Shown: in pieces, positions 28,739-57,661 of the stretch
How positions within the stretch are numbered: position 1 is the stretch's first letter
Layout: each line of letters begins with the position of its first letter
Source: Deltaproteobacteria bacterium
GTDB taxonomy: Bacteria; Desulfobacterota; Syntrophia; Syntrophales; UBA5619
Assembly: GCA_021372415.1 (NCBI GenBank)
Contig: JAJFUM010000089.1
Coordinates: 30 to 64,029, forward strand
Length of the DNA: 64,000 nt
Direction: 5' to 3'
Made by a program: the position numbers and the translations under genes
The notes under the pieces: model-generated
The model's input: only the letters and a program-made list of their open reading frames with translations
Told to the model about the DNA's origin: nothing
The model's database searches: none

Positions 28739-28784
28739 GTGAAACGCGCCGTCTCTCCCTTGCCGCAGCATCGCGCCGCCACGT

Positions 28785-30078: not shown

Positions 30079-30121
30079 ACTGTCTACCTCCTGATGAAGT
30101 GATGGAAAAAACAGGCGATAC

Positions 30122-30649: not shown

Positions 30650-30667
30650 ACGGCACCTCCTGAGGGT

Positions 30668-33847: not shown

Positions 33848-33897
33848 CCCTTGTCATCCTTTCCGCCGAATCGCTTTTCAAAATTCCGCCAGCGGGA

Positions 33898-35813: not shown

Positions 35814-35824
35814 GCAGCCCCCTT

Positions 35825-42829: not shown

Positions 42830-43534
42830 TCAGGCTTCGTCGGCGAACTTGTAGCCGATACCGCGGACGGTCAGGATATACCGTGGGTTCGAAGGGTCCG
42901 GCTCGATCGCCCCCCTCAGGCGGCTGATGTGGACATCCACCGTCCGGGGCTCTACGAAGGACTCGTCACCCCAGACGCGGTCGAGAAGCTGTTCGCGGCT
43001 GTAAACCCGGCCGGGATGGCCAATGAAGAACTGCAGCAGTTTGAACTCGCGGGAGCTGAGCTCGACCTCCCTGCCCTCAAGGGTCACGCGGTAGGCCTTC
43101 AAATCGACGTGGAGCCCCTGGAAATCGAAAGACTCCGGCAGGTTTTCGTCCGGGTGCTGATCCGATCGCCTCAGGACGGCGCGGACCCGGGCGATCAGCT
43201 CCCGAACATGAAAAGGCTTGGTAAGGTAGTCGTCCGCCCCGATCTCCAGCCCCAGGATCCGGTCCACAGGTTCAGACTTGGCGGTCAGCATGATAATGGG
43301 CAGATTCGCCGTCTCGGGGACGCCCCGGACGATCCGGCACACCTCCGTTCCCGATACCCCGGGCATCATCAGGTCCAAGACGACCAGGTCCGGCTTGTCA
43401 CGCCGGATCGATTCCAGGGCGCTGCCGCCATCCAGGGCCTTCAGGACGGAGAATCCTTCCCGTTCGAGATTGTAGGCAACCAGTTCCACGATGTCTTTCT
43501 CGTCGTCGGCAACGAGGATCTTCTTCTGCGTCAT
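42830..43534 (-). CDS. phoB: OmpR/PhoB-family response regulator
   Basis: Receiver 'ILVADDE...DLVVLDLMMPG' plus winged-helix 'REFKLLQFF...VDVHISRLR'. Last gene of the pst-phoU-phoR operon. Confidence 0.85.
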   Translation of the reverse strand: MTQKKILVADDEKDIVELVAYNLEREGFSVLKALDGGSALESIRRDKPDLVVLDLMMPGVSGTEVCRIVRGVPETANLPIIMLTAKSEPVDRILGLEIGADDYLTKPFHVRELIARVRAVLRRSDQHPDENLPESFDFQGLHVDLKAYRVTLEGREVELSSREFKLLQFFIGHPGRVYSREQLLDRVWGDESFVEPRTVDVHISRLRGAIEPDPSNPRYILTVRGIGYKFADEA

Positions 43535-45288: not shown

Positions 45289-45977
45289 CCCTTCGGTCCG
45301 CAGGTCGGCTGGTGCCGTACGCTCTTTCCCGTGATCATGTAAATCACCATGTCTGCGATCCCCTCGGCGTGATCGGCGATGCGTTCGAGACTCTTGGAGA
45401 TCTGCATGATGTAGAGGCAGACCTGGATCTTATGAGGCTCTTCCATCATGAATGTGAGCAGTTCCCGGAAGATCTGCTCGTTGAGCCGATCAATAATGAC
45501 ATCCTCCTCCCGGACCCGATGGGCCAGTTCCACATCCTCGCTCACCATGGCGTCGAGGCTTCTGTGGATCATCCCCCGGACGATCTGGGCCATCCGCGGC
45601 AGATCGATGTAGGCCTTGATCTGGGGAATCTCGTTCAGGATGAGGACCTTCTCGGTGATATTGGCAGCCATGTCGCCGATCCGCTCCAGGTGGCCGGTGA
45701 TCTTGATCGATGTCGTGATGAACCGCAGGTCCCGGGCGGCGGGCTGGCGGAGGGCCAGAAGGCGGATGCACTTCTCCTCCAACTCGAAATCGAGGCGGTC
45801 GATCTGGTCGTCTTCGCAGATGACCTGCTTGGCCAGTTCGGAGTCTCTCTCCACGAGCGCCGTGGTTCCTTTTTCCAGGGCCTTTTCCGTCAGGGCCCCC
45901 ATGTAGAGCAGACCGTCCCGGATCTCCTGGAGCTCACGCTCGTATTCCGCGCTGGTATGTCGTTTGGCTTCTTCCAT
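45285..45977 (-). CDS. phoU: phosphate signalling complex protein PhoU
   Basis: 230 aa, two repeats with 'LERIGDMAANITE' and 'LERIADHAEGIAD'. Confidence 0.9.
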   Translation of the reverse strand: MEEAKRHTSAEYERELQEIRDGLLYMGALTEKALEKGTTALVERDSELAKQVICEDDQIDRLDFELEEKCIRLLALRQPAARDLRFITTSIKITGHLERIGDMAANITEKVLILNEIPQIKAYIDLPRMAQIVRGMIHRSLDAMVSEDVELAHRVREEDVIIDRLNEQIFRELLTFMMEEPHKIQVCLYIMQISKSLERIADHAEGIADMVIYMITGKSVRHQPTCGPKG

Positions 45978-46000
45978 GGTTCCTCCTTCGGCTCTGATGC

Positions 46001-46771
46001 TTAACCGAACCGACCGGTGATGTAATCCTCAGTCTGCTTCACATCCGGGTTGGTGAAGATCTTTTCCGTGGCGTTGAATTCGATCAGTTTGCCCATGTAG
46101 AAAAAACCCGTGTATTCCGAGACGCGGGCCGCCTGCTGCATGTTGTGCGTCACGATGATGATCGTGTAGCGTCTCTTGAGTTCGTCGATGAGCTCTTCGA
46201 TCTTCGCCGTGGAGATGGGATCGAGCGCCGAGGTCGGTTCGTCCATCAAAAGGACGTCGGGCTTCATGGCCAGCGCCCTGGCGATGCAGAGGCGCTGCTG
46301 CTGTCCGCCGGAGAGGGTCATGGCAGATTTTCCCAGGATGTCCTTCACCTCGTCCCAGAGGACCGCCTGTTTGAGGCTCTCCTCCACGAGGTTCTCCAGA
46401 TCGCCGTTGTTCCGGACGCCGGAGAGTCTCGGGGCGAAGGTGATATTGCTGAAGATCGACTTTGGAAAGGGGTTGGGCTTCTGGAAGACCATCCCGATCC
46501 GCTGGCGGATCCCCACGGGGTCCACGTCGGGGGCGTAGATGTTCTTCCCCTCGAACAGGATCTCCCCCTCCACCCGCGTCCCGTCGATCAGATCGTTCAT
46601 CCGGTTGAGGAGCCGAAGGAGCGTCGATTTGCCGCAACCCGACGGCCCGATCAAGGCGGTGACGCGGCTCTTTTCGAAATCCAGCGTCACGTCAGTCAGG
46701 GCCTTGAAGGCACCGTAATAGAAATCCACGTTCTTGGCCGTGATGATCATCTCTTTTTCCACATCTACCAC
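46001..46771 (-). CDS. pstB: phosphate ABC transporter ATP-binding protein
   Basis: 'NVDFYYG', 'GPSGCGKST', '[14 protein letters not shown]', '[12 protein letters not shown]'. Confidence 0.92.
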
Positions 46772-47646
46772 CTTTTCCTCTTCCGGACCATGCTGCGCAG
46801 GACAATGGCCACCAGATCGATCCCCAGGACCAGGACGATCAGGACCAGGGCCGTTCCGTACTGCAGGGGGCGGGTCTGCTCGATATGGGTCCCCGCCGTA
46901 GCCAGGACATAGATATGATAGGGCAAAGCCATCACCTCGTCAAAGACCGATTTCGGCAGAACGGCTGTGAAAAAGGCCGCCGCCGTGAACATGATGGGCG
47001 CCGTCTCCCCGGCGGCGCGTCCGACCCCCAGGATCGACCCGGTCAGGATCCCCGGCAGGGCCGAGGGAACAACGACCCGGGAGATGGTGCGCCATTTGGA
47101 GACGCCCAGGGCGAGAGAAGCCTCACGGAAGGTCTGGGGAACGGCCTTGAGGGCCTCCTCCGCAGCTCCGATGATCGTAGGGAGGATCAGGATCCCCAGG
47201 GTCAAGGCTCCGGAGAGGATGCTGGAACCGAATTTCAGGAAGACGACGAAAAAACCGAGGCCGAAGAGGCCGAAGACGACGGAGGGGACGCCGGCCAGGC
47301 AGTTGACGCCGATCCGGATGATCCGGATGAAGAGCCCCTGCTTCGCATATTCCGTCAGATAGATCGCCGAGACCACCCCCAGGGGGAGGGCAACAAGGAT
47401 CGCCCCGACGGTGAGGTAGAAGGTCCCGACGATGGCCGGCATGATCCCGCCTTTGGTCATGGAATCCAAAGGAGGTTCCGTAAGAAATCTCCAGCTGATG
47501 GCCCCGATCCCGTTGACCAGGAGAAAGGCGATGATTCCCACGAGAGCCACCGTGACGATGAAAGCTGCCAGCCGCACCACGCCGAAGAAGAAGCCCTGCC
47601 GGAGATAACGCCATTGCATGGACGGGTCTGGTCTATAGGCGCTCAT
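46765..47646 (-). CDS. pstA: phosphate ABC transporter permease PstA
   Basis: Polytopic permease with '[22 protein letters not shown]' EAA loop. Position in the operon. Confidence 0.9.
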
Positions 47647-48551
47647 AATGTTCCCGAACCCTCCTCTTTGAATCTGCGGGAGATGCGATCGGCGATCAGG
47701 TTGAAAAGGAGCGTGATCAGCAATAGAACGATCCCCGTGGCGAAGAGGGCGTGGTAATGGCCTCCCCCGAAGGGCGCTTCGCCCATCTCCGCAGCAATGC
47801 TTGCCGGCATGGGACGCACCGAATCAAAGATTCCCCGCGGGACTGCCGCCGAGCCTCCGGCCACCATGAGGACCACCATCGTCTCCCCGATCGCCCGGGA
47901 CATCCCCAGGATCACCGCCGTGGAGATCCCCGAGAGGGCAGCGGGGATCGAGACCCGGAGGATCGTCTCGTACCGCGTCGCCCCCAAGGCGTAAGAGGCC
48001 TCTTTGAAATCCCGGGGGACGGCGTAGAGGGCATCTTCCGAGATGCTCGATATGGTGGGGATCGCCATGACGGCCAACATGATGGAGGCGTTGACGATGT
48101 TGAGACCCGTGGGCAAATCGAAAGTCTCCTGCATCCAGGGCCCCAGGATCACCATCCCGAAGAAACCCAGGACCACCGAAGGGAGGCCTGCCAGGAGCTC
48201 GATCACAGACTTGAGAATCTCCTTGATCCGCGCCGGGGCGATCTCGGAGATGTAGACGGCGCAGCAGAGCCCGAAAGGAACGGCGATGAGACAAGACAGG
48301 GCCGTCACGATCACGGAGCCTACGATCAGAGGCCAGATCCCGTATTCCGGCGGATTGTACGTGGGATACCAGGACGACCCGAAGAGGAACTGCACCGGGT
48401 TGATCTCTTTGAAGAGGGGAAGTCCCTCCCGGAAGAGAAAAAGGACGATGAGCCCCAGAAAGAGCACAGAAAGGAAGGCAAAAAAGGCAAAGATATTCTT
48501 TATGATTATTTCCCTGGCCCTGCTGGTCAGGGCTCTTCGTCCGCTGTCCAT
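47643..48551 (-). CDS. pstC: phosphate ABC transporter permease PstC
   Basis: 'EDALYAVPRDFKEASYALGATRYE' EAA loop. Start chosen at MDSGRRAL. Confidence 0.88.
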   Translation of the reverse strand: MDSGRRALTSRAREIIIKNIFAFFAFLSVLFLGLIVLFLFREGLPLFKEINPVQFLFGSSWYPTYNPPEYGIWPLIVGSVIVTALSCLIAVPFGLCCAVYISEIAPARIKEILKSVIELLAGLPSVVLGFFGMVILGPWMQETFDLPTGLNIVNASIMLAVMAIPTISSISEDALYAVPRDFKEASYALGATRYETILRVSIPAALSGISTAVILGMSRAIGETMVVLMVAGGSAAVPRGIFDSVRPMPASIAAEMGEAPFGGGHYHALFATGIVLLLITLLFNLIADRISRRFKEEGSGTL

Positions 48552-48671
48552 AAACCTCTCTTCCGTATCAAAGCAACGCGGGCCCTGACGACCCGGCCCG
48601 CGCAAAAGCGTTCAACACCCAGGAAAGGACCCCGGCAGTGTATCAATCCCGCTGGCACCCCGGTTATACCG

Positions 48672-49496
48672 TCACCTTCCTGACAGAGGGACAAATCCTT
48701 CCCTCTTGACCAGGGCTTGACCCGCAGGGCTCAGGACGAACCGGATGTATCGAGCGGTCTCGCCCTTGGGCTCACCGTTGGTGAACAGGTACAGAGCCCT
48801 CGATACCGGATAGGCCTTCATGCTGGCCGTCTTCTCCGAGGCCCGGATGCCGTTGACCGACAGGGCCTTCACCGATTTGTCCAGGTATCCCAGGCCGATG
48901 TAACCCAGGGCATACCGGTTCTTCGAGACCGCCTGGACGATAGCCCCGTTGGAGGCCTGAAGCTGGGCCCGGGGCGTGACTTTGGCCCCCTTCAGGATCA
49001 GTTCCCCCCAGGCCTCGAAGGTCCCCGAACTGCTGTCCCTGGAGATCGCCACAATCTGAAGGTCCCGGCCGCCGACCTCCTTCCAGTTCGTGATCTTCCC
49101 CTGGTAGATCTGGCTGAGTTGATCGAGGCTAAGGTCGTTCACAGGGTTCCCCGGATGGACGATCGGTACGATGGCATCGATCGCCACCCTCGTCTCGACG
49201 GGATTGACCCCCTTGGTCTTGGCCAGTTCCACCTCTGCGGGCTTGATCTGCCGGGAGGATGTGGCGATGTCCGTGGCGCCGTCGATGAGGGCCTTGATCC
49301 CGTCGCCCGATCCCCCGCCGGACAGGGAGATCTTCGTCCCCGGATTCGCCTTCATGAAGGCCTCCAGGGTCGCCTGGGCGATGGGCAGGACCGTCGTGGA
49401 TCCCTTGATCACCACGCTGTCCGCAGAGACCGGACCGGCCGCGAGGATGAGTCCCGCCGCCAGCATCCAGAAGAACCATCCTGTTTTTTTCTCCAT
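48672..49496 (-). CDS. pstS: phosphate ABC transporter substrate-binding protein PstS (operon copy)
   Basis: Start at MEKKTGWFFW (signal peptide). The remaining upstream part of the 446-aa track ORF is Pro/Gly/Arg-rich read-through and was rejected. Confidence 0.9.
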   Translation of the reverse strand: MEKKTGWFFWMLAAGLILAAGPVSADSVVIKGSTTVLPIAQATLEAFMKANPGTKISLSGGGSGDGIKALIDGATDIATSSRQIKPAEVELAKTKGVNPVETRVAIDAIVPIVHPGNPVNDLSLDQLSQIYQGKITNWKEVGGRDLQIVAISRDSSSGTFEAWGELILKGAKVTPRAQLQASNGAIVQAVSKNRYALGYIGLGYLDKSVKALSVNGIRASEKTASMKAYPVSRALYLFTNGEPKGETARYIRFVLSPAGQALVKREGFVPLSGR

Positions 49497-49530
49497 CTCT
49501 TCTTCCCTCGCCAAGCAGCATAGAGGAGGA

Positions 49531-49571
49531 TTGTTACAATTCGATGACAACCCCGTGAAGCTTCCGTGAAA
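49531..49571 (-). promoter_or_regulatory. Pho-box array plus -10 TATGCT upstream of pstS-2 (pstSCAB-phoU-phoRB operon)
   Basis: Gene-sense TTCAC-n6-TTCAC-n6-GTCAT-n6-GTAAC-n10-TATGCT. Confidence 0.65.
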
Positions 49572-49642
49572 TAGATGGAACCGCCCGCAAGCCCAAAGCC
49601 GAAATCTCCTGCCGTCCGATCGATCTTTGGGGGAGGCCAGGG

Positions 49643-51592
49643 TCAGGTGAAGAACAGGACCCAGAGGATCTGGCCCAGGAGGAAGAGCCCCAGCAGGAGG
49701 CTGGCCAGGCCGAAGGTCGACCCGAGGAGCTTCAGGGGGATTCCCGGATAGGAGCGCTTCATGGACTCCAGGCGGGCGTCGTCCTTGAGGCGTTCGTAGT
49801 GGAGGGGCCGCTGCTCCTTCATGTCCTCCAGGGTGTAGGTCCCCGTGAAGATGATCCGGTCCATGGGGAACTTCGTCGGGATGAAGTGGGTGTTGAAGAA
49901 GTGAACCGTGAAGATGAAGAGGGCCGCCAGCAGGGCCTCCTCGGAATGGACGAGGGAGGCCACGTTGAGGAGCCAGCCCGGGAATAGGTACGAGGACCAC
50001 TCGGGCACCCACATGAGAACCCCCGAACTGCCGATGGCGAACATCCCCCAGAAGACGGCCCAGAAGTCGAACTTCTCCCAGTAGGTCCAGCGGTCGAATC
50101 TCGGCATCTCCCCTTTGTTAAAGAACCACCGGCCCATCCCCTTGAAGTCCTCCCAGTCCTTCCAGTTGGGGACGAGGGAATCGGGACCGAAGAAGCGCCC
50201 CCAGAACCCGCGGCGCCCCTGGCCCTTCGGGAAGAGGTATCGCAGGGACAGCCAGGCCACGTAGGCCACGATGGCGATCAGCAGGAGGGCCGCCCCGCGG
50301 TGGAAGAGGCCCGCCTGGTGCGCACCGCCCCAGAAGCGGATGAGGAGGCCCGAGAAGGCGGCGGTGTGGTACTTGAGCGGAAATCCTGTCATGACCAGGG
50401 TGAAGAAGGAGAGGATCAGCAGGACGTGCATGATCCGCTCCCTGCGCGAGAAGCGCTGGATCTGCTGCAGCCCCTCGCCCTTGGCCAGGAGGGCCCTGGG
50501 CAGGATGCCCTGCTTCTCCATGCGGTGGTTTTCCCAGTAGGTCTTGCGCCACCACAGGACGGTGTGGAGCCAGAAGAAGCACAGCGTCCCCACGAGAAGC
50601 CCCGACATGGCCACAAAGGTCCAGAAAAGGGCGGGATAGCGCTTCCGGTCCCGGTAATCGGGATGGGCCTTGTAGTCCACGAAGCGCGGATGGAATCCCC
50701 GGTGGCAGCGGCCGCAGTTATGGACGAGATTCGCGGGGTGGATGCTGGAACGGGGATCCCCTTTGGGAAGGATATTGTGGGTGGTATGGCAATCGGCGCA
50801 ACCGGCCACCCCTGCCGGATAGCCGATGCTCTGGACCTTGCCGTGATAGGTCTGCTCGTAATAGGCGACGATCTTGGGGTTGAGGTTGTTGCGCCTCGCG
50901 ATGACCGGATCGGCATGGCAGCGCTTGCAGTTTCGGCTGTAAAACTCCCGGGCCTCCTCGGGATACTTCTCCAGGGAGGTGTGGAAGACCTGCGTGTTGT
51001 GGAGGCCGTGGCAGTCGGCGCAGGCTGCGGCGTCCTGCTTCCCCTTGAGGACCGCCTCGGCGTGGCCGGAGGCGACGTAGTCCTCATTGGCGTGGCACTC
51101 GGTGCACCTCTCGATGACGACCCGCTTGAGGGGTTTCGTCCGGGCCTTGAAGGAATGGATCTCCCGATGGCAGTCGACGCAACGGAAATCGAGCTGGACG
51201 TAATGGAAATTCCGGCGGTATTCGAGCGCGATCTGTTCATGGCAGTTCCCGCAATTCACGGGGGCAGGCTTCTCCAGCCCTTTGCTGTGGAGGTTCTGAT
51301 GAGTGATCCCCGTGTGGCAGCCCGTGCAGCTGTTCTCGCCGTGGACCGACCGGGGGAAGGCCCCGCGGTAGAGGTAATCGTCGTGGCAGGAGAGGCAGTC
51401 GAGCACCGCCCAGGCAGGCATCGTCCCAGGCCCCGCCAGGGAAAGGGCGACAAAGCCGGCCACCAGCAGGACCAGCCGCCAGAAGGCCGCAATCCTCCGC
51501 ACCGGCCCTCTTTCGATCTTGAAGAGATTCCATGCGGGCATCGGGAATCCCATGCCCCGGTTGCAATCATTCCTGTCCACGGTCGGTCCCAT
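49643..51592 (-). CDS. CbcL-like fusion: 9-haem periplasmic c-type cytochrome domain plus HydC/FdnI-type di-haem cytochrome b membrane domain
   Basis: Nine CXXCH motifs (CLSCH, CTGCH, CGNCH, CVDCH, CTECH, CADCH, CKRCH, CADCH, CGRCH), followed by 4-5 TM helices with conserved His ('MHVLLILSF', 'GLFHRGAALL', 'SLVHSEEALL...FTVHFFNTHF'). Confidence 0.8.
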   Translation of the reverse strand: MGPTVDRNDCNRGMGFPMPAWNLFKIERGPVRRIAAFWRLVLLVAGFVALSLAGPGTMPAWAVLDCLSCHDDYLYRGAFPRSVHGENSCTGCHTGITHQNLHSKGLEKPAPVNCGNCHEQIALEYRRNFHYVQLDFRCVDCHREIHSFKARTKPLKRVVIERCTECHANEDYVASGHAEAVLKGKQDAAACADCHGLHNTQVFHTSLEKYPEEAREFYSRNCKRCHADPVIARRNNLNPKIVAYYEQTYHGKVQSIGYPAGVAGCADCHTTHNILPKGDPRSSIHPANLVHNCGRCHRGFHPRFVDYKAHPDYRDRKRYPALFWTFVAMSGLLVGTLCFFWLHTVLWWRKTYWENHRMEKQGILPRALLAKGEGLQQIQRFSRRERIMHVLLILSFFTLVMTGFPLKYHTAAFSGLLIRFWGGAHQAGLFHRGAALLLIAIVAYVAWLSLRYLFPKGQGRRGFWGRFFGPDSLVPNWKDWEDFKGMGRWFFNKGEMPRFDRWTYWEKFDFWAVFWGMFAIGSSGVLMWVPEWSSYLFPGWLLNVASLVHSEEALLAALFIFTVHFFNTHFIPTKFPMDRIIFTGTYTLEDMKEQRPLHYERLKDDARLESMKRSYPGIPLKLLGSTFGLASLLLGLFLLGQILWVLFFT

Positions 51593-51593
51593 G

Positions 51594-52346
51594 CTAGGGC
51601 CTTTTGTTCCTGGCCTTTTCCTTCGCCGTCATGGCCTTCCAGGAGGCCATGCCGCCGAAGAGCCTCTCCACGGTGTATCCCCTCGCGATCAGATAACTGG
51701 ACGCGAGCGGGGAACGGAAACCCCGGTTGTCCACGAGGATCAACGGGCGGTCGAGGGGCAGCTCCCGCCAGCGCCGGTGCAGCTGGTACATCGGCAGATT
51801 GACGGCACCCTCAATACGCTCTTTACGAAACTCCTTTTCCGATCGGATGTCCACGAGGAGGGCCCCTTGCTTCTCCGCCATCCTCTTTCGCAGGGCCAGC
51901 GGCTTCAGCGACGGGACCGCCCGGCGGGGGATCCGTTCCACCGAGACGGTCTGGTAACCGGCGATCTTCCAGGCCGGCATCCCGCCCTCCAGGAGCCGGA
52001 CGGCTTGATATCCCTGCCGGGCCGCCATGCCTGCCGCCTCGCGGCTTCTCCGCGAGGTCTCGCTCTCACAGTACAGGACCAGCATCCGGTCCCTGTCAGG
52101 GGCCATTTCGCCGATCCGTTCCTCAAACTCCTCGATGGGGATGCAGAGGGAACCGGCGATGCTGTGGTCCCGGCATTCGATCTCGGACATCGTGTCGACC
52201 AGGAGGGGCCTCTTCCCCTCGGCGATCATCCGCGCCAGCGTCTGCGGCGGGAGCCTCTGCCACCCCGTCTCGGCGGCCCCTGCGGCGGCGCAGAGGAACC
52301 CCATCAGCAGGATTCCCGAAATCCCAGATTTCAAAAAGCGGCCCAT
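51594..52346 (-). CDS. exported tandem-rhodanese protein (active N-domain, Cys-less C-domain)
   Basis: Signal peptide 'ISGILLMGFLCAAAGAAE'. Active-site loop 'VLYCESETSRRS'. Second domain has 'ILVDNRGFRS' (Asp instead of Cys). Confidence 0.75.
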   Translation of the reverse strand: MGRFLKSGISGILLMGFLCAAAGAAETGWQRLPPQTLARMIAEGKRPLLVDTMSEIECRDHSIAGSLCIPIEEFEERIGEMAPDRDRMLVLYCESETSRRSREAAGMAARQGYQAVRLLEGGMPAWKIAGYQTVSVERIPRRAVPSLKPLALRKRMAEKQGALLVDIRSEKEFRKERIEGAVNLPMYQLHRRWRELPLDRPLILVDNRGFRSPLASSYLIARGYTVERLFGGMASWKAMTAKEKARNKRP

Positions 52347-52362
52347 GGACCTCTCGACCTCT

Positions 52363-54990
52363 CTATTCATAAGCGGGCACGGCGCGGACACCCCACCCGA
52401 CCATCTGCGGCGCCGCATTCGGTTCCTTCGGTGTCGGGTAATTCTCCTTGAGAAATCGCCCCACATGGAGGATCTTCATCTTCATGAAGAACGGCGCGTT
52501 GTCGCTGTGGCAATCCAGGCATCCGTCGGGGCTCCCCTTGGCGCCGTAGGTCTTCTTCCGCTCCAGGGGAATCACGTTGTGGTAAACGGCGAAGGAAGGC
52601 CTCTCCCCCGGCCGGAGGATCTCGGACTCGACCAGCTTTTCCTGCCTGACTTCGTACAGCTTCCGGCCCACCATGACGACGTTCTTGAATCCCGCGTCGG
52701 TCAGGGCCCGGATCAGGGCCTTGATGTCCTCCTTGGTGCTCACGGTCTGGGCCAGGAGGGCATGGCCCCGCTCGTTCCTCACCTCGATCATCGAGAGCCC
52801 CGTGAGATTCTTCAAGGCCTGACGCACCGGGACCGGTCCGATCGGCCGGACCGACCCGTCTTTCTGCCTCTCCCCGAACCATCTCGCCGGTTGCGCGCCG
52901 GCTGCCCCAGAGGGAGTCCTCAAGGCCGCCGGTAATGCCGAGGAGACGACCTTGTCCTTCTTCATCTCGTAGAGCCGGCCGGAAACAAAGACCACGTCGT
53001 GAAATCCCATTCCTGTGAGGGCCCGGATCGCCAGCCGGATGTCCCTTCCCGTATCGACGACCGGCTCGACCCGCAGCGTGCCCCGGGGGCCTTTGACCTC
53101 CGCGAGGGAGATCCCCTCGAGGGCCCGGAAGGCCTGCAGGACGTACTGGAGGCCGATCGGCCTGATCTCGCCGCCCTCCTGCCGTTCCCCGAACCACGTG
53201 GCGTTCCGGTCATAGGGAGGGAAGGATTGGCCCGGGGCCGCCGCCGGCGCATCGAAGGGAATGACCCGGTCCCCCCGGAGGGCGTAGACGCGGTCCGCAA
53301 CGAAGACAACCTCCGGCCCCCCCTGGCTGGAGAGGGCCCGGATCATCTGCCGAACATCCGCCTCGGTGGCGACAGTCGTCTCTTTCCCCTCTTGTCCCCG
53401 GATGTCCCGGACAGCCACCGACGAGAGGTCCTTGATCCCCTCGGCGGCCCGTCGCACCCGGGTCGGAGGGATCGGCCGGATCCGGCCGCCGTCCAGCTTC
53501 TCCCCGAACCACTGGGAGGCCCGCGTCACGCAGGGGACGTAGCGTTCCCCTTCCCCCTTGACCCGTTCGTAACGGGTGATCCAGGGGGCCCATGGGGCGG
53601 CTGCGGGGGCAGTCCAGTCGTCCATCGGACCGATCCGTTCGAGGCGGTCCGCCGTATACAGGACCTCCTCCCCGGCGGCGGCATCCCGGAGGTAGATCGC
53701 CCGGCCGGGCTGGGCCGTGGAATGACAGGCCGAGCAGTGCAGGAGGGAAAAGTGAAACAAGGCCCGCGGGAACCTCTCCCTGTGCGTTTTCGAGGGATCG
53801 CGAGCCTCTCTGGGCATCCCGGGGCGCGTTGGCCGGTAACGGCCCTCGAGATGGCATTTGGCGCAGGTCATCATTCCGACGCCGTCGAGGCGGTCCATGA
53901 CGGTCCCCTGCGGCGAGAACCCCTTGGCAATCTGGTGTTGGAGCCGCTGCGACTTGGACCGGCCCGCCAGGGGGTGGCAGTCCGTGCACTGCAGCCCCGC
54001 CGCCACGTGGGCATCGTAAGGGGCTTCGTGGAGCGTCCCCGTCTTGCGGGCGTCCATCTCCCGGTGGCACTGCAGGCAGTTCTTGGCACCCACCTCCCGG
54101 TTGATCAGCCGCCCCTGGAGCTTCCCCTCCTTCGTGAAGAGATGGCCGTCCTTCCAATGGTAGTCGACGAGGGGACTTTGCGAGAGGTTCCACGTTCCGG
54201 TCTCAGAGGCCGACCCTGGGCCAGCCGTCGGAACGGCATAGGTGAAGACCGCCCCCCGGACATCGCCAAGGCCGGCGCCGGCCGTGGCGGCCCAGCGGTA
54301 GTTCCTCAGGCTCAACTGGGCGTTGCGCCGGTCGAGGCGGTACCCGGGAAAATGGCAGATCAGACAGTCCCCCTCCACGACGCCGGTCTCGCGGAAACGG
54401 CTCCGCCCGTCCGGCGTGGCCCGGGAGCTGTAATCCCCGTCCCGGGCCGAAGCGCCCTGCCTTTCGCCCTCGATCAGCGTCTTTGAAAAATCGGGCCTTC
54501 CATCGGCCTTCCGGCCGTATTCAAGGGGCCCCCCTCCCGGGTGGGTCCATCCGCAGGCCGCAGACAGGGCCTTCCCATCAGGGCCGAATTTTCCGCCCGC
54601 CCCGATCCAGTCGAAGGAGGAAAGGCCCTCCCCGTGAGGAGTCAGGTTTTTCTTCGGGGCGATGTGGCCGGAGGCGATCCCGGGGATGCAGCCCATCCCG
54701 TAGATGCCCGGGGAGGGGACCAGGGGACCGCCCGGGTCGATGCCGCCCTTTATCTCATCGAACCCCTGCTGGAAATGGTACCCCGAGGTGATCGTCGTGT
54801 AGCCGTGACAGGTCCCGCAGGTCCTGCGCGGGCTGTAGGGGTCCGCGGCGTTCCGAGAGGGGGTGATCCGCTCCCCCTGCTCGTTCTTGAGCCAGATGTC
54901 CCCGTGCCGCCACGGCTGGGCCGCCTGAAGCGGAAGCGCAGACAGAACAAGGGCCATGCAGACCGCAGCCGCCGTACCTCTGAATCCCAC
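52363..54990 (-). CDS. large heptahaem c-type cytochrome with three internal ~105-aa tandem repeats
   Basis: CGTCH, CLICH, CLQCH, CTDCH, CAKCH, CSACH, CLDCH. Signal peptide 'AAAVCMALVLSALPLQAA'. GTG 54990 is preceded by GGAGAGGA; the track start is ATG 55056. Confidence 0.75.
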   Translation of the reverse strand: MGFRGTAAAVCMALVLSALPLQAAQPWRHGDIWLKNEQGERITPSRNAADPYSPRRTCGTCHGYTTITSGYHFQQGFDEIKGGIDPGGPLVPSPGIYGMGCIPGIASGHIAPKKNLTPHGEGLSSFDWIGAGGKFGPDGKALSAACGWTHPGGGPLEYGRKADGRPDFSKTLIEGERQGASARDGDYSSRATPDGRSRFRETGVVEGDCLICHFPGYRLDRRNAQLSLRNYRWAATAGAGLGDVRGAVFTYAVPTAGPGSASETGTWNLSQSPLVDYHWKDGHLFTKEGKLQGRLINREVGAKNCLQCHREMDARKTGTLHEAPYDAHVAAGLQCTDCHPLAGRSKSQRLQHQIAKGFSPQGTVMDRLDGVGMMTCAKCHLEGRYRPTRPGMPREARDPSKTHRERFPRALFHFSLLHCSACHSTAQPGRAIYLRDAAAGEEVLYTADRLERIGPMDDWTAPAAAPWAPWITRYERVKGEGERYVPCVTRASQWFGEKLDGGRIRPIPPTRVRRAAEGIKDLSSVAVRDIRGQEGKETTVATEADVRQMIRALSSQGGPEVVFVADRVYALRGDRVIPFDAPAAAPGQSFPPYDRNATWFGERQEGGEIRPIGLQYVLQAFRALEGISLAEVKGPRGTLRVEPVVDTGRDIRLAIRALTGMGFHDVVFVSGRLYEMKKDKVVSSALPAALRTPSGAAGAQPARWFGERQKDGSVRPIGPVPVRQALKNLTGLSMIEVRNERGHALLAQTVSTKEDIKALIRALTDAGFKNVVMVGRKLYEVRQEKLVESEILRPGERPSFAVYHNVIPLERKKTYGAKGSPDGCLDCHSDNAPFFMKMKILHVGRFLKENYPTPKEPNAAPQMVGWGVRAVPAYE
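52621..53511 (-). repeat. three tandem in-frame ~315-nt (about 105-aa) repeats inside the heptahaem cytochrome gene
   Basis: Units begin WFGEKLDGGRIRPI / WFGERQEGGEIRPI / WFGERQKDGSVRPI. Each continues ...D[IV]R/K..IRAL[ST]..G[FG]..VV[FM]V..R[VL]Y.... Confidence 0.8.
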
Positions 54991-55172
54991 GGGATTCCTC
55001 TCCACATTTTCCCGGCCGGGGCGCACGGGCCGTCGCCACCGCCGGGCATCCCCCATGGATCTTCACGGACCTGAGAACCGCGATCCCCTGGCACGCTCTT
55101 TGGGAATCCGGTCCCGATCCATCCCTTCCCTTTCGGGCCTCCGGGGCCGCGGCCCCGGAGGCCCCCGACTCG

Positions 55173-56063
55173 TTACGGCTCCATCGGCGCCGCCGCGTCC
55201 TTGGCGTATTCCATCGTCGAGCCGTCATAGGCCTTGGCGTTCGAGTATCCCAGCAGTTCGTGGAGCATGAACCACCAGGCCGTGCAGAACTTTCCCGTAT
55301 CGCAGTAGAGGATGACCTCCTTAGAAGTGTCCGTCCCCACCGCCTTGGCAGCCTCGGCGGCCAGGGCGTCCTTGGACTTGTAGGTCCCGTCCGCCTCATA
55401 CATCAACGACGTGGGAAGATTGACGGCACCCTTGATGTGGCCCGCCCTGGCGACGAAATCCATCTTCTTCTTGCCGTCGAAGAAATCGGGTTCGCGCACG
55501 TCCACGATCACGGCCTTGCCCAAGGCCGCCAGGACGTCGGCCTTCTTCACGACGACATCTTTCTGGAATGTTCCCCTGTAAGCCTTGGACCGGGGTCTGG
55601 CGGCCTCGGTGGAAACCGTTTTCTGGTCGGCGACCCATTTGTTGTAACCGCCGCTCAGGAGGGCCACGTTCTGGACGCCAGCGTACTTGAGCGTCCAGGC
55701 GACCCGGGTGGCGTCAACCCGGTCCGCCGGGGTGTCCATCTTGCCCAGGACCACGACCGGCGTGGTCGCCTCGATCCCTACTGAAGAGAGGATGTCCTTC
55801 AGGTCGTCATCGGCGGGCAACTCGTTGAGGAGATCCCCCTTCTTGACGGCCCAGGAGCCGTAAACGACGTTGACGGCATTGGGGATGTGGCCGGCTTTGT
55901 ACTCCTCGACCTTCCGGACGTCCAGAACGACGACCTTGTCGATGTTCTGTTCCAGCCAGCCGGTAGTGACCACAGGCTCCATCGCCGCCGCGGCGGAGAG
56001 AGCGCCGAGGGACATCAGAAAAGCAAAGGCCATGATGGTGGTAAGCAGTTTCCTTCTTCTCAT
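55173..56063 (-). CDS. periplasmic two-domain rhodanese sulfurtransferase (SseA/Sud-like)
   Basis: Signal peptide 'MAFAFLMSLGALSAAAA', 'LDVRKVEEYKAGHIPNAVNV', active-site loop 'ILYCDTGKFCTAWW'. Confidence 0.85.
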   Translation of the reverse strand: MRRRKLLTTIMAFAFLMSLGALSAAAAMEPVVTTGWLEQNIDKVVVLDVRKVEEYKAGHIPNAVNVVYGSWAVKKGDLLNELPADDDLKDILSSVGIEATTPVVVLGKMDTPADRVDATRVAWTLKYAGVQNVALLSGGYNKWVADQKTVSTEAARPRSKAYRGTFQKDVVVKKADVLAALGKAVIVDVREPDFFDGKKKMDFVARAGHIKGAVNLPTSLMYEADGTYKSKDALAAEAAKAVGTDTSKEVILYCDTGKFCTAWWFMLHELLGYSNAKAYDGSTMEYAKDAAAPMEP

Positions 56064-56072
56064 TGCATCCTC

Positions 56073-57326
56073 CTATTCGCTTATGGGTATGGGTTTGGGG
56101 TTAACCAATAAATCCAAGTTGGCCTTGGAACCGTCCTTGATCAGTTTGTCCTTCGTGAGGAAACCCTTGCGATCCTCGTGGCAGGCGTCGCAGTTTCGGG
56201 TCCGCTCGGTGCGCTTGCGGATGTTGTGCGCCGGGGTGTCCCAGTAGTTGGGCAGGCGGTCGAACCTTTCCATCCCGATCCCCTCGCTCTTGAAGCTGTC
56301 CCGGACCGTGGGGATCAGCCGCAGGGTCGTGACCTGCCTCTTGTTCTTCGGGCTCATCCCGAGCATGAAGCCCGGCTTGGCCTCCGATCCGCCGCCTACG
56401 TGGCAATCGGAGCAGTTGCGGTATTCCGCCGAGGCATGGCATCCGAAACAGGTGACCTTGTCCTGGTGCTTGAGGTGGGCGATCCGGGCCGTGAGCTTCG
56501 CCTCGCCCCCCAGGCGATGGCAGTCCCGGCAGGATGGGCGGTCCCTGACCTCCTCCTTGGCCCGGTAGGCCGTGCCGTCACCGTGGAACTCCCGTTTCCT
56601 GTGGCAGTCCATGCACATCATACCCTTCTGGTAATGGACATCGGCTGTGCCGCCGTACTCGCCGGTATACTCGGGATAGACCCTCCCGCCGTGACAGAAG
56701 GCGCAGGTCTTGCCCTCGTCCTTCTTCACGAACCGGTGTCCCTGGATGAGGCCGACGCTGATCCCGCTGATCACCGGGGACTTCACATGACAGTCGCCGC
56801 AGGAGGCGTGGCAGGACCGGCAGGACTTCTCGAAGACATTGGCGTCGAAATGCTTCGCCTCCGCCGGGGACATCCGCTCGATCACGCGGTTCCGCTGGCC
56901 GGCCGTCGTGTAGTGGAGCGACTTGCCGTAGGTCGAAACGATCCGGGCATGGCACTCCCCGCAGGTCTCGAGGCGGTCCGACGGCCGTTTGTCCCACCCC
57001 TTGTGGGCCAAGTCCTTATTCAGTTTGGAGTCGTCACCCTTGTGGCAGGCGGTGCACCCCTTCGCGAAGTGCTCATCCTCGCTGATTATTTTCCGGTCCA
57101 CGAGGAAACCCCGGTGGTACGTCTCCGCCGAAACCGGCGGAGGAGCCCCCGCTCAACCCTGGGCCTCGCCGGAGCCGAGTTCCGGCACTTTGCAGAGCCG
57201 CTTCAGGAGAGCTTCGTTGGTATGGCAGATGATGCAGGAGCTTTCATTCTTGGCCGTGGAAGCCGAAGAAAGGACCAGGAGGACGACAAAGACGAGCATG
57301 ACACCCGTTACGATTCGAGACCTCAC
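56073..57326 (-). CDS. candidate 11-haem c-type cytochrome translated through in-frame UGA 57153-57155 (possible Sec). Otherwise two ORFs: 57153..57326 signal-anchor monohaem peptide and 56073..57101 leaderless decahaem
   Basis: AAGGAG-n6-GTG at 57326, signal peptide 'RSRIVTGVMLVFVVLLVLSSASTA', CIICH, then TGA. 17 sense codons follow in the same frame, then ten more CXXCH (CTACH ... CDACH). The downstream ORF alone has no export signal. Confidence 0.5.
57123..57142 (-). promoter_or_regulatory. SECIS-like hairpin starting 11 nt 3' of the UGA
   Basis: mRNA: UGA-GCGGGGGCUC-CUCCGCCG-GUUU-CGGCGGAG. Perfect 8-bp GC-rich stem with a G/U-containing tetraloop. Confidence 0.45.
57153..57155 (-). other. 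in-frame UGA codon (candidate selenocysteine / recoding site)
   Basis: The stop of ORF 57153..57440 lies exactly 54 nt (18 codons) upstream of the start codon of ORF 56073..57101, in the same reading frame. Confidence 0.5.
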
Positions 57327-57481
57327 GCGGGACTCCTTCGGGAGATTGTGTACGGTTCCATGGTACCAGAAAGGCGGCACCGGATCAATCCCGATCAACG
57401 GCGGCACAGGCCATACCTTTTTACCCGCAAGGTCTCGCAAAGGCAGGTTTGAGCAGAGTGCCGCCGATCACGGACAGGAAT

Positions 57482-57516
57482 TTATATGTTCTATATGTTC
57501 AGGATATGGAACATGA
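57482..57516. promoter_or_regulatory. tandem plus inverted ATATGTTC repeats in the AT-rich divergent promoter region (cytochrome operon / MCP-2)
   Basis: TTATATGTTC-TATATGTTC-AGGATATG-GAACAT: two direct copies of ATATGTTC and an ATGTTC-n8-GAACAT inverted repeat. Confidence 0.4.
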
Positions 57517-57661
57517 TTCTTCCTGTCAAGGGGATTCTGCCGCAGGCTTTGTCGCAGAAGGAATTGGCCCGGAGTATGCATATATTCTGCAATCGTCCAG
57601 TTCAACCAGCACCGGTCCGGACGGGCCTGCACCAAGACACTAAAAAAAGGAGTGAAGGAAG

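What the first reader, a model, noticed from the sequence alone, without database searches (positions are those of the whole stretch)
49643..57326. Five-gene operon alternating multihaem cytochromes with exported rhodaneses and ending in a CbcL-like quinol-oxidoreductase
Transcription order on the minus strand is 11-haem (UGA) cytochrome, periplasmic two-domain rhodanese (CDTGKFC loop), 7-haem repeat cytochrome, exported tandem rhodanese (CESETSR loop), then 9-haem-c/cytochrome-b fusion. Gaps are 9-180 nt, including a 1-nt stop/start junction at 51592-51596. The last gene has the domain composition reported for Geobacter CbcL, an inner-membrane menaquinol oxidoreductase. Periplasmic rhodaneses such as Wolinella Sud carry persulfide/polysulfide sulfur to respiratory reductases. 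Pairing two of them with 27 haem sites and a quinol module suggests an undescribed periplasmic electron-transfer pathway. Candidate substrates are a sulfane-sulfur species (polysulfide, thiosulfate, S0) or a selenium or other chalcogen species. No molybdopterin or sirohaem catalytic subunit is present, so a cytochrome would have to be the terminal reductase or oxidase.
Basis: inference. Interest (0 to 1): 0.65.

Follow-up and report, generated by a model that had tools for sequence, protein, structure and literature searches.

The report
Selenocysteine cytochrome–rhodanese respiratory operon
A five-gene operon of a syntrophic (Syntrophales) bacterium links a membrane quinol-oxidising cytochrome to two exported sulfur-carrier proteins and to an unannotated selenium-containing 11-haem cytochrome; it probably reduces polysulfide-type sulfur in the periplasm, which these bacteria are not known to do.

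Summary
Five minus-strand genes (57326..49643) encode an 11-haem cytochrome with an in-frame UGA, a tandem rhodanese, a 7-haem cytochrome with three 105-aa repeats, a second tandem rhodanese, and a 9-haem-c/cytochrome-b fusion laid out like CbcL. All five have export signals. Wastewater metatranscriptome contigs bridge all four junctions and stop at the operon's edges.

The cluster is conserved in more than 60 Syntrophales species genomes. g3-g4-g5 is nearly universal, g1 is usual, and g2 is present in about 80% of loci that have g1.

The UGA is selenocysteine. It is TGA in 45 of 47 loci where the site could be read, in a fixed G-E-G-U-A-G-A-P-P-P motif. A hairpin follows whose synonymous sites are frozen. 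Distant relatives carry Cys there, and three of six such relatives checked sit next to a rhodanese gene.

This cytochrome is not detectably related to MccSep, the Geobacter Sec-cytochrome polysulfide reductase published in August 2026. It matches none of the three cytochrome selenoprotein models listed in a 2026 review.

Best reading (about 0.45): a molybdenum-free menaquinol:sulfane-sulfur (polysulfide) reductase, with the rhodaneses as sulfur carriers and Sec58 as the reactive centre. Selenium reduction and generic extracellular electron transfer remain rivals. No biochemistry exists.

The parts
57501..57529 (-). Sigma-70-like promoter (TTGACA-17-TATCCT) upstream of g1
   Evidence: Consensus scan, 10 of 12 matches. 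This is a pattern match only. RNA contigs reach 57447 and depth is about 0 beyond 57450.
56073..57326 (-). g1: exported 11-haem c-type cytochrome selenoprotein (417 aa, Sec58)
   Evidence: 11 CXXCH motifs and a signal peptide. AAGGAG lies 5 nt before the GTG start. The reading frame is conserved across the UGA in all relatives.
57153..57155 (-). In-frame UGA, read as selenocysteine 58 in the motif GEAQG-U-AGAPPPV
   Evidence: The codon is TGA in 45 of 47 related loci where the site could be read, and never TAA or TAG. The two exceptions are GCA/Ala in L019 and Arg in L073. No read or contig differs at this site in the DNA or RNA runs. Distant relatives have Cys at this position.
57124..57141 (-). 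SECIS-like hairpin: 6-bp stem with an apical loop holding invariant G22 and U23, starting 11 nt after the UGA
   Evidence: Folding and the alifold consensus. The five clean stem pairs are kept in 43-44 of 44 distinct sequences; the 19-28 pair is kept in 33. Synonymous third-codon positions inside the stem have 0-0.16 bit entropy, against 0.99-1.84 bit outside it.
55173..56063 (-). g2: exported tandem rhodanese (296 aa); catalytic Cys254 (codon 55304-55302) in the loop CDTGKFC
   Evidence: Pfam Rhodanese x2, E 8e-34. Closest solved structures are thiosulfate sulfurtransferases such as 3hwi, E 1e-32. The catalytic Cys is invariant in all 38 orthologues read. Signal peptide.
55135..55164 (-). GC-rich 13-bp hairpin in the g2-g3 spacer, without a U-tract
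   Evidence: Folding gives -38 kcal/mol, z -3.4. RNA contigs run through it (54760-56023), so it is not a full terminator.
52363..55056 (-). g3: exported 7-haem cytochrome (897 aa) with a large non-haem region and three 105-aa repeats
   Evidence: 7 CXXCH motifs. 229 relatives were scored, nearly all unnamed Syntrophales proteins of about 660, 760 or 870-900 aa. AF2 model pLDDT 68.5. The only fold lead is octahaem tetrathionate reductase 1sp3, and it is weak.
52597..53511 (-). Three tandem 105-aa repeats in g3, starting at aa 516, 621 and 726, each opening with WFGE
   Evidence: Pairwise identity 35-44%. The model predicts a mixed alpha/beta secondary structure in each repeat. MerP/HMA resemblance is weak (E 0.004-0.035), and the repeats contain no Cys. 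Relatives carry 1-3 copies, inferred from their lengths.
51594..52346 (-). g4: exported tandem rhodanese-like protein (250 aa); domain 1 has Cys93 (CESETSR, codon 52070-52068), domain 2 has Asp in the catalytic position
   Evidence: Pfam Rhodanese x2. The start at 52346 is supported by homologue alignments beginning at that Met. The domain-1 Cys is replaced in many orthologues, and domain 2 is always Asp.
49643..51592 (-). g5: inner-membrane c/b cytochrome fusion (649 aa). N-terminal anchor or signal, nonahaem c domain (about 51397-50702), about six TM helices with a b-type domain (about 50629-49646)
   Evidence: 9 CXXCH motifs and the hydropathy profile. Pfam Ni_hydr_CYTB 30.1 bits, at the cut-off, and TIGR01583 FdnI-like 44 bits, below the cut-off. 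The layout is the one described for CbcL (PMC9129911).

Best explanation
The five genes are one operon for a periplasm-facing respiratory branch that takes electrons from the menaquinol pool and uses them to reduce zero-valent (sulfane) sulfur, i.e. polysulfide or protein-bound persulfide, to sulfide, without a molybdenum enzyme.

Proposed steps:
1. g5, a CbcL-type fusion of a dihaem-b membrane domain and a nonahaem-c domain, oxidises menaquinol and passes electrons into the periplasm. This is inferred from domain composition.
2. The 7-haem g3 and the 11-haem g1 form the periplasmic haem wire. This is inferred.
3. The exported tandem rhodanese g2 picks up sulfane sulfur on its invariant Cys254 as a persulfide and presents it to g1. 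This is inferred from the conserved gene pairing.
4. Sec58 of g1 sits on a Gly/Pro-rich loop 23 residues after the first haem motif. It attacks the sulfane sulfur to form a Se-S adduct, which g1's haems reduce, releasing HS-. This is inferred by analogy with MccSep.
5. g4 is tied to g3-g5 in nearly all relatives but often lacks a catalytic Cys. It is more likely a docking or substrate-binding subunit than an enzyme. This is inferred.

Shown here: the gene content, export signals, co-transcription, conservation, and the selenocysteine coding features. Not shown: any activity, the substrate, or the direction of electron flow.
For: - **Operon.** RNA contigs from three wastewater metatranscriptomes cover 49402-57447 only. 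They bridge g1/g2 (55216-56275), g2/g3 (54760-56023), g3/g4 (52065-52459) and g4/g5 (51287-51883). The pstS and MCP flanks have almost no RNA, although the DNA run from the same study covers them.
- **Conservation.** In 64 loci from species-representative genomes plus 4 metagenome loci, g3-g4-g5 is present wherever the contig allows. g1 lies upstream in about 47 loci, and g2 is present in 36 of the 45 Sec-type loci.
- **Selenocysteine.** The codon is TGA in 45 of 47 readable loci, within an invariant motif, followed by a hairpin with frozen synonymous sites and a GU loop at the canonical distance. Cys replaces Sec in distant relatives such as GEG-C-GG and DG-C-ASAP.
- **Link to rhodanese beyond this clade.** Cys-type relatives are immediately followed by a rhodanese gene in a Sulfurovum MAG (L069) and in two other metagenome contigs (L071, L075). 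That is 3 of 6 Cys-type loci examined, against 0 of 1 without Cys. The two Syntrophales loci that lost Sec (Ala in L019, Arg in L073) both lack g2. A hand-computed Fisher test gives p about 0.05 with n=2, so this is only suggestive.
- **Location.** All five proteins have export signals, and no outer-membrane porin or conduit gene is in the operon.
- **Precedent.** Geobacter MccSep is a Sec-containing multihaem cytochrome. It is the polysulfide reductase of S0 respiration and lies in a cluster with the rhodanese ExtH (PMC13510729; PMC5877670).
- **Haem ligands.** g1 has 9 conserved non-motif His and 2 near-invariant Met for its 11 haems. No obviously open catalytic haem is evident, which leaves Sec as the only candidate reactive residue. 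This last point is inference.
Against: - No biochemical, genetic or substrate-response data exist for any member of this family.
- g1 is not detectably homologous to MccSep, and it lacks a conserved extra Cys that could play the role of MccSep's haem-ligating C239. The mechanistic analogy is therefore loose.
- Nine Sec-type loci have no g2. Several of those also carry a g4 without a catalytic Cys (e.g. L027, L030, L043, L056), so an operon-encoded active rhodanese is not obligatory.
- About ten loci have g3-g4-g5 with no g1 nearby.
- Within Syntrophales, loss of Sec gave R, S, W, Y, A or P, not Cys. This is unusual if the residue is catalytically essential.
- To my knowledge, Syntrophales are not known sulfur respirers, and menaquinol-to-polysulfide electron transfer is thermodynamically tight.
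- The AF2 models were too poor to place Sec relative to a haem.
Confidence: 0.45

Rival explanations
1. Selenium (or tellurium) oxyanion reduction or selenium acquisition. The Sec-cytochrome reduces periplasmic selenite, and the rhodaneses carry the resulting selenium as perselenide. This would supply the large selenoproteome of these syntrophs or detoxify the oxyanion.
For: MccSep also reduces selenite, with Vmax 59 against 83 U/mg for polysulfide. The Geobacter ext cluster with rhodanese ExtH was first tied to selenite/tellurite reduction (PMC5877670). NCBIfam gives weak sub-threshold similarity of g2 to ExtH (64.7 bits against a cut-off of 200) and of g1 to ExtN/ExtM/ExtO. It is established knowledge that rhodaneses can carry selenium.
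Against: Twenty-seven haems and a quinol dehydrogenase are a respiratory-scale investment for a trace element. In MccSep, polysulfide was the preferred substrate and the physiological one. The ExtH and ExtN scores are far below the family cut-offs, so they show shared domains, not orthology.
Confidence: 0.2
2. A generic periplasmic electron-export branch (CbcL-type) used for extracellular or interspecies electron transfer. The cytochromes are only wires, and the rhodanese-like proteins are structural or regulatory partners.
For: In Geobacter, CbcL serves low-potential extracellular acceptors. The most conserved core is g3-g4-g5. g4 is often catalytically dead. One locus type has the three cytochromes and no rhodanese (L003/L004). 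The operon is often adjacent to the cytochrome-maturation genes ResB/CcsA. It is expressed in methanogenic wastewater and digester communities.
Against: No porin-cytochrome or outer-membrane component lies in or next to the operon in any locus examined. A strictly conserved selenocysteine with a SECIS-like element, and an invariant catalytic Cys in g2, are not expected of mere wires. The g1-family/rhodanese pairing recurs in unrelated phyla.
Confidence: 0.17
3. The module runs in the oxidative direction. Sulfide, persulfide or thiosulfate sulfur delivered by the rhodaneses is oxidised at the Sec/Cys cytochrome, and the electrons enter the quinone pool, as in TsdA or SoxAX-type His/Cys-haem chemistry.
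For: Cys-type relatives with an adjacent rhodanese occur in Sulfurovum, a sulfur-oxidising genus. The MccSep authors note that their mechanism may be the reverse of TsdA/SoxAX chemistry.
Against: The hosts here are strict anaerobic syntrophs from methanogenic systems with no obvious high-potential acceptor. The characterised CbcL-type proteins are quinol oxidases.
Confidence: 0.1
4. The UGA is a true stop. g1 would then be two products: a 57-aa one-haem peptide and a separately initiated 10-haem cytochrome.
For: Gene callers and NCBI annotation split the gene. Most database entries are about 345-aa fragments named 'cytochrome c3 family protein'.
Against: The amino-acid sequence is conserved in frame on both sides of the codon. 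The codon is always TGA. The downstream part would lack a signal peptide and could not receive haem. A SECIS-like hairpin is under RNA-level selection. Sense-codon and Cys-type relatives are single polypeptides.
Confidence: 0.03

Closest known systems
MccSep (ExtKL, GSU2937-2936) of Geobacter sulfurreducens, within the extHIJKL cluster with rhodanese ExtH (PMC13510729; PMC5877670)
   Same: It is a periplasmic multihaem c-type cytochrome with one UGA-encoded selenocysteine followed by a SECIS-like hairpin. Annotation splits it into two ORFs. It is encoded in a cluster with an exported rhodanese-like protein. Cys-type relatives exist. It has been shown to be a polysulfide (and selenite) reductase, so a cytochrome acts as the terminal chalcogen reductase without molybdopterin.
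   Different: There is no detectable sequence homology. g1 and its profile miss the MccSep chains 9WT8/9WT9, which are present in the searched PDB copy, and g1 does not match NF040886. g1 has 11 haems, not 5. Sec is N-terminal (residue 58, loop G-U-A-G-A-P-P-P), whereas MccSep's Sec lies in a C-terminal Ig-like domain (D-G-U-P, residue 325). g1 has no conserved haem-ligating Cys partner. The operon partners also differ: a CbcL-like quinol module and a 7-haem protein here, a porin (ExtI) and ExtJ there.
CbcL (GSU0274) inner-membrane quinol oxidoreductase of Geobacter (PMC9129911; Zacharoff 2016 as cited there)
   Same: g5 has the same order and content: an N-terminal periplasmic domain with nine CXXCH motifs, then a membrane domain of about six helices of the HydC/FdnI/Ni_hydr_CYTB b-type kind.
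   Different: Orthology to GSU0274 was not tested, because that sequence was not obtainable with the tools. As far as I know, CbcL is not described in an operon with rhodaneses or a selenoprotein, and it feeds extracellular acceptors through PpcA-type cytochromes.
Wolinella succinogenes polysulfide respiration: PsrABC with the periplasmic rhodanese Sud (from my own knowledge)
   Same: A periplasmic rhodanese-type sulfur carrier feeds a quinol-linked periplasmic polysulfide reductase.
   Different: The Psr catalytic subunit is a molybdopterin enzyme and its membrane anchor is NrfD-type. Here no molybdopterin protein is present, the candidate catalytic subunit is a Sec-cytochrome, and the anchor is a b/c cytochrome fusion.
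Octahaem tetrathionate reductase (OTR, PDB 1sp3); TIGR04315 family, some members annotated as selenoproteins (PMC13188914)
   Same: It is a periplasmic multihaem enzyme acting on S-S bonds, and it is the only fold-search lead for g3 (E 1.3e-3, probability 0.82).
   Different: The match is weak (TM 0.14/0.25, rmsd 15 A) and comes from a medium-confidence model. g3, g1 and their profiles do not hit OTR or TIGR04315 by sequence. g3 has 7 haems and an unrelated repeat region.

Membership tests
Bacterial selenoprotein gene (general criteria) | An in-frame UGA at a conserved position, with the protein sequence conserved on both sides | tested here: met
   The codon is TGA in 45 of 47 readable related loci plus the window, and never TAA or TAG. 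The motif G-E-G-U-A-G-A-P-P-P-V is conserved in frame.
Bacterial selenoprotein gene (general criteria) | A SECIS-type stem-loop just downstream of the UGA with G/U in the apical loop | tested here: met
   The hairpin spans positions 15-32 after the U of UGA, with G22 and U23 invariant. Five of its six stem pairs are kept in 43-44 of 44 distinct sequences, the sixth (19-28) in 33. Synonymous sites in the stem have 0-0.16 bit entropy against 0.99-1.84 bit outside it. No Rfam family matched, which is uninformative for bacterial SECIS.
Bacterial selenoprotein gene (general criteria) | Homologues with Cys at the Sec position | tested here: met
   Distant full-length relatives have Cys there: P0251/P0253/P0353 (DG-C-ASAP type), P0252, P0265, P0294 and P0302 (GEG-C-GG). 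Within Syntrophales, however, the rare non-Sec forms carry R/S/W/Y/A/P.
Bacterial selenoprotein gene (general criteria) | The host genome encodes selA, selB, selD and tRNA-Sec | not tested
   None of these was found among the window genes examined, and no tRNA lies in the window. Only 64 kb of the genome is available.
MccSep / ExtKL (NF040886) | Sequence homology to MccSep | tested here: not met
   There is no NCBIfam ExtKL hit at E<=0.01. Neither g1 (E<=1) nor the family profile (E<=10) matches the MccSep chains 9WT8/9WT9, which are in the searched set.
MccSep / ExtKL (NF040886) | Five CXXCH motifs, with Sec in a D-G-U-P loop of a C-terminal Ig-like domain beside a His/Cys-ligated haem | tested here: not met
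   g1 has 11 CXXCH motifs, Sec at residue 58 of 417, and no conserved non-motif Cys.
CbcL-type b/c quinol oxidoreductase | An N-terminal periplasmic domain with nine c-type haem motifs | tested here: met
   Nine CXXCH motifs lie between residues 66 and 297, after an N-terminal hydrophobic segment.
CbcL-type b/c quinol oxidoreductase | A C-terminal membrane domain of about six helices of the dihaem b (HydC/FdnI) type | tested here: inconclusive
   Five clear hydrophobic helices plus one weaker one, with His residues in or near them. Pfam Ni_hydr_CYTB scores 30.1 bits, equal to the cut-off. TIGR01583 scores 44 bits, below its cut-off of 116. The haem-b ligands were not mapped.
CbcL-type b/c quinol oxidoreductase | Orthology to GSU0274 and menaquinol oxidase function | not testable with these tools
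   The GSU0274 sequence could not be retrieved. An attempt through the PDB chain 28pb led nowhere.
Rhodanese sulfurtransferase (PF00581, tandem type) | A rhodanese fold with a catalytic Cys in the active-site loop | tested here: met
   g2 has two domains (E 8e-34), and Cys254 is invariant in 38 orthologues. g4 has two domains and Cys93 is present in the window. That Cys is replaced in many orthologues, and domain 2 always has Asp.
ExtH (NF040901) | A score above the family cut-off | tested here: not met
   g2 scores 64.7 bits against a cut-off of 200.
Porin-cytochrome extracellular electron conduit | An outer-membrane beta-barrel gene next to the periplasmic or outer cytochromes | tested here: not met
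   No such gene lies in the operon or its flanks in the window or in L001-L004 and L073.
Molybdopterin polysulfide reductase (PsrABC) | A molybdopterin catalytic subunit plus an NrfD-type anchor | tested here: not met
   The five proteins contain only cytochrome, rhodanese and b-type domains.

The most novel reading that the evidence does not exclude
Sec58 lies 23 residues after the first CXXCH motif, as the haem-ligating Cys follows its haem motif in TsdA/SoxA-type cytochromes. It could therefore be the distal axial ligand of haem 1. That would be a natural selenolate-ligated c-type haem acting as the catalytic centre of a new, molybdenum-free quinol:polysulfide reductase. It would also give obligately syntrophic Syntrophales a hidden sulfur-respiring electron sink in methanogenic habitats.
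Probability: 0.15. Interest if true: 0.88.

Novelty: new variant of a known kind. Interest (0 to 1): 0.68.

Why it matters
Syntrophales (Syntrophus, Smithella and relatives) are key fatty-acid and aromatic degraders in digesters and sediments. Their central energetic problem is disposing of quinol-level electrons. A conserved, expressed, quinol-linked periplasmic chain ending in a selenocysteine cytochrome with sulfur-carrier partners would give them an unrecognised electron sink, namely cryptic polysulfide or sulfane-sulfur reduction. It would also link the sulfur and selenium cycles to methanogenic carbon flow.

For selenium biology, it adds a second multihaem selenoprotein family with no detectable sequence similarity to MccSep. 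Current annotation cuts this family in two and names it 'cytochrome c3 family protein'. For enzymology, it offers a test of whether Sec-plus-haem chemistry for S-S cleavage evolved more than once, and possibly a haem with a selenium ligand. A cultured carrier exists, Syntrophus gentianae, so the question can be tested directly.

Tried and rejected
- **Rfam** scans of the window and of the UGA region found nothing relevant. This is uninformative for bacterial SECIS elements.
- **Sequence searches of g1, g3 and g5 and of their profiles against the PDB** returned only generic CXXCH-level matches (NrfA, MtrF, c552). None of the three is filed under NrfA, OTR, MccA or HAO.
- **AF2 model of a full-length g1 relative** was poor (pLDDT 60.8) and gave no fold match. 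The position of Sec relative to the haems therefore could not be examined.
- **g3 model** gave only a weak OTR lead, which sequence profiles did not confirm. I keep it as a lead and not as a classification.
- **Testing g5 against CbcL** through PDB chain 28pb failed. The fragment has no exact database counterpart and no name.
- **Weak MerP/HMA similarity of the g3 repeats** was rejected as evidence of metal binding, because the repeats contain no Cys.
- **Functional link to the neighbouring pst/Pho genes** was rejected. The neighbours differ in every related locus. pstS has its own Pho-box-like element and almost no RNA where the operon is expressed.
- **Literature searches** for a description of this Syntrophales cluster found none.

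Full report
**1. Observation**

The minus strand between 57326 and 49643 carries five consecutive ORFs.

- **g1 (57326..56073).** It starts at a GTG preceded by AAGGAG and reads through a TGA at 57155-57153 in frame. With that codon translated it is 417 aa with 11 CXXCH motifs.
- **g2 (56063..55173).** A 296-aa tandem rhodanese with the loop CDTGKFC.
- **g3 (55056..52363).** 897 aa with 7 CXXCH motifs and three 105-aa repeats starting at residues 516, 621 and 726. The repeats are 35-44% identical to each other.
- **g4.** The ORF extends up to 52466, but homologue alignments begin at the Met at 52346. This gives a 250-aa tandem rhodanese-like protein with CESETSR in domain 1 and Asp in the catalytic position of domain 2.
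- **g5 (51592..49643).** 649 aa with 9 CXXCH motifs, then five to six hydrophobic helices. Pfam Ni_hydr_CYTB scores 30.1 bits, exactly at the cut-off, and there is an FdnI-like NCBIfam hit below cut-off.

The gaps are 9, 116, 16 and 1 nt. All five products begin with a hydrophobic signal-like segment, found by my own hydropathy scan and not by SignalP.

**2. One transcription unit, expressed in nature**

Sequencing-run search found the region in biofilm, wastewater, bioreactor, groundwater, mixed-culture, activated-sludge, soil and digester metagenomes, and in three wastewater metatranscriptomes. RNA contigs from those runs cover 49402-57447. They bridge all four gene junctions and the UGA. 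RNA depth is zero or near zero over the pstS gene downstream and zero over the divergent chemoreceptor gene upstream, although the DNA run from the same study covers both flanks. Contig depth is a crude measure and DNA carry-over cannot be excluded, but the sharp edges argue for real transcripts.

A sigma-70-like promoter match lies at 57529-57501. pstS (ATG at 49496) has its own Pho-box-like direct repeat, TTGTCAT-CGAA-TTGTAAC, at 49550-49533. A 13-bp GC hairpin without a U-tract lies between g2 and g3, and transcripts run through it.

**3. Conservation**

g3 has hundreds of unnamed relatives, essentially all from Syntrophales, Syntrophaceae and Smithellaceae MAGs. Gene neighbourhoods of three relatives (74%, 53% and 49% identity) and 64 loci from species-representative genomes were compared with the window proteins by tblastn.

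- g3-g4-g5 is present wherever the contig extends far enough.
- g1 lies upstream in about 47 loci.
- g2 lies between g1 and g3 in 36 of the 45 loci whose g1 has the UGA.
- About ten loci have g3-g4-g5 with unrelated genes upstream (e.g. L051).
- One locus type (L003/L004) has g1-g3-g5 with no rhodanese.
- One MAG carries two copies: L005, the full type, and L051, the core type.

Flanking genes differ between loci. ResB/CcsA cytochrome-maturation genes are frequent neighbours. The window's Pho-regulon neighbourhood is therefore coincidental.

**4. The UGA is selenocysteine**

Four lines of evidence support this.

- In 45 of the 47 related loci where the site can be read, the codon is TGA. It is never TAA or TAG. 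It sits inside the motif (G/A)-E-G-U-A-G-(A/T)-P-P-P-V, with the protein conserved in frame on both sides.
- A hairpin follows, pairing positions 15-20 with 27-32, counted from the U of UGA. G22 and U23 are invariant in the loop.
- Synonymous third-codon positions inside the stem (15, 18, 27, 30) have 0-0.16 bit entropy. Synonymous positions outside it (6, 9, 12, 21, 24, 36, 39, 45) have 0.99-1.84 bit. This shows selection on the RNA, not only on the peptide.
- The part after the UGA has no signal peptide of its own, so it could not be exported or receive haem as a separate product.

Most database entries are about 345-aa fragments, so annotation pipelines have not recognised the Sec. Rare full-length Syntrophales forms carry R, S, W, Y, A or P at the site, not Cys.

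An exhaustive profile search found a much wider family, with 1079 representatives at E<=1e-3. In that family, distant full-length members do carry Cys at the equivalent loop, for example GEG-C-GG, DG-C-ASAP, ES-C-GGPPPP, CC and CxxC variants. This is the classical Sec/Cys signature.

**5. Link between this cytochrome family and rhodaneses**

g2's catalytic Cys is invariant (YCDTGKxC or YCDSGRVA). g4's domain-1 Cys is kept only in the subgroup nearer the window and is replaced elsewhere. g4's domain 2 is always inactive.

Outside Syntrophales, Cys-type relatives of g1 are immediately followed by a rhodanese gene in a Sulfurovum MAG (L069) and in two other metagenome contigs (L071, L075). Three other Cys-type loci and one non-Cys locus have no adjacent rhodanese. 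The two Syntrophales loci whose g1 lost Sec (L019 Ala, L073 Arg) both lack g2. By hand calculation, 37 of 46 Sec loci against 0 of 2 non-Sec loci gives a Fisher p of about 0.05, which is only suggestive. Taken together, these results suggest that the Sec/Cys loop and an active rhodanese work together, but they do not prove it.

**6. Comparison with what is known**

A paper of August 2026 shows that Geobacter MccSep (ExtKL) is a five-haem selenoprotein. It is the polysulfide reductase of S0 respiration, and its Sec lies beside a His/Cys-ligated haem (PMC13510729). Its gene lies in the ext cluster with the rhodanese-like ExtH (PMC5877670).

g1 is not a member of that family. It has 11 haems, its Sec is N-terminal, and it has no conserved extra Cys. 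It gives no NCBIfam ExtKL hit. It gives no match to the MccSep chains 9WT8/9WT9, which I confirmed are in the searched PDB set.

A 2026 review of prokaryotic selenoproteins lists only ExtKL, the GSU2204 family and OTR-type octahaem proteins among cytochromes (PMC13188914). g1 matches none of those models. Literature searches found no description of this Syntrophales cluster.

g5 has the layout reported for CbcL (PMC9129911), but orthology could not be tested. Structure-based comparison was limited. The g1-type model was poor and matched nothing. The g3 model (pLDDT 68.5) gave only a weak hit to octahaem tetrathionate reductase 1sp3, and sequence profiles did not support it.

**7. Interpretation**

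The best-supported reading is a periplasmic, quinol-linked chalcogen reductase built from cytochromes. g5 taps the menaquinol pool. g3 and g1 carry the electrons. g2 delivers sulfane sulfur as a persulfide. Sec58 of g1 captures it, and the adduct is reduced to sulfide. g4 acts as an adaptor.

The gene content, export signals, operon structure, conservation and Sec coding are shown. Everything about substrate, direction and mechanism is inferred from the MccSep and Sud/Psr precedents and from the gene pairing.

The conserved non-motif residues of g1, nine His and two near-invariant Met for eleven haems, suggest no open catalytic haem. That leaves the Sec loop as the reactive site. Whether Sec also ligates haem 1 remains open.

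The rivals are selenium reduction or trafficking, a plain electron-export branch, and operation in the oxidative direction. The absence of any outer-membrane conduit, together with the strict conservation of Sec and of g2's Cys, weighs against the plain-wire model. The loci without g1 or g2, the dead g4 variants and the non-Cys replacements weigh against a simple obligatory rhodanese-to-Sec relay.

**8. Verdict**

The finding is real and non-trivial. It is a new variant of a recently established kind: a Sec-multihaem chalcogen reductase encoded with rhodanese partners. It involves a selenoprotein family that is neither annotated nor detectably similar in sequence to MccSep, and an operon architecture not found in the literature searched. 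It occurs in a lineage where sulfur respiration is unexpected. The function remains to be demonstrated.

Noticed in passing
window 49533-49550 (minus strand), upstream of pstS ATG at 49496: A Pho-box-like direct repeat, TTGTCAT-CGAA-TTGTAAC, lies between g5 and pstS. pstSCAB-phoU-phoR (49496..43531) is almost silent in the metatranscriptomes in which the cytochrome operon is expressed.
   Followed up: partly
window 17335-35949: The neighbourhood is dense in phosphate-starvation genes. It holds a second PstS-like binding protein (17335-18156), an alkaline phosphatase (18308-20038), a phosphonate ABC transporter (22325-25002), a PIN-PhoH protein (25482-27023) and a PhoU-domain/APH-kinase fusion (33898-35949).
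   Followed up: partly
window 55135-55164 (minus strand): A perfect 13-bp GC hairpin (-38 kcal/mol, z -3.4) sits directly after the g2 stop and has no U-tract. RNA contigs read through it. It could be an RNA-stability or processing element that sets the g1-g2 versus g3-g5 stoichiometry.
   Followed up: partly
window 1051-3474 (-) and 37283-39718 (+): Two long ORFs (807 and 811 aa) with coding-like GC3 have no Pfam match at E<=1e-5.
   Followed up: no
L005 and L051 (same MAG, 'uncultured Syntrophus sp. binchicken_co265_2'): One genome carries two paralogous clusters. One is the full type, 87% identical to the window (the contig begins within g2, so g1 was not seen). The other is a g3-g4-g5 core type at 49% identity with no g1 or g2 upstream.
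   Followed up: partly
g4 orthologues, L015-L068 (alignment): Where the catalytic Cys of g4 domain 1 is lost (YGGN, YDEN, YSGL and similar), a Cys about 10 residues downstream is very often present (...C at the end of the loop segment). It may be an alternative functional thiol.
   Followed up: no
P0126, P0127, P0131, P0134, P0141, P0147, P0181, P0232: Syntrophales g1 homologues without UGA carry R, S, Y, W, A, A, R and P at the Sec position, not Cys. R, S and W can each be reached from UGA by a single base change (I did not read the codons), which suggests simple loss of Sec rather than functional replacement.
   Followed up: partly
L069 (Sulfurovum MAG), genes at 5741-9148: A three-gene set: a ferric-reductase-like membrane flavocytochrome (Ferric_reduct/FAD_binding_8/NAD_binding_1), a Cys-type g1 relative with an extra Cytochrom_C domain, and a single-domain rhodanese. 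This is a different electron-input module for what appears to be the same cytochrome-rhodanese pair.
   Followed up: no
P0148, P0193, P0397: JGI/IMG names some pure-cytochrome g1 homologues 'thiosulfate/3-mercaptopyruvate sulfurtransferase'. This is probably annotation spill-over from the adjacent rhodanese gene.
   Followed up: no
window 10524-14168 (+): A 1214-aa AsmA/DUF748 envelope protein with an OmpA-like segment.
   Followed up: no
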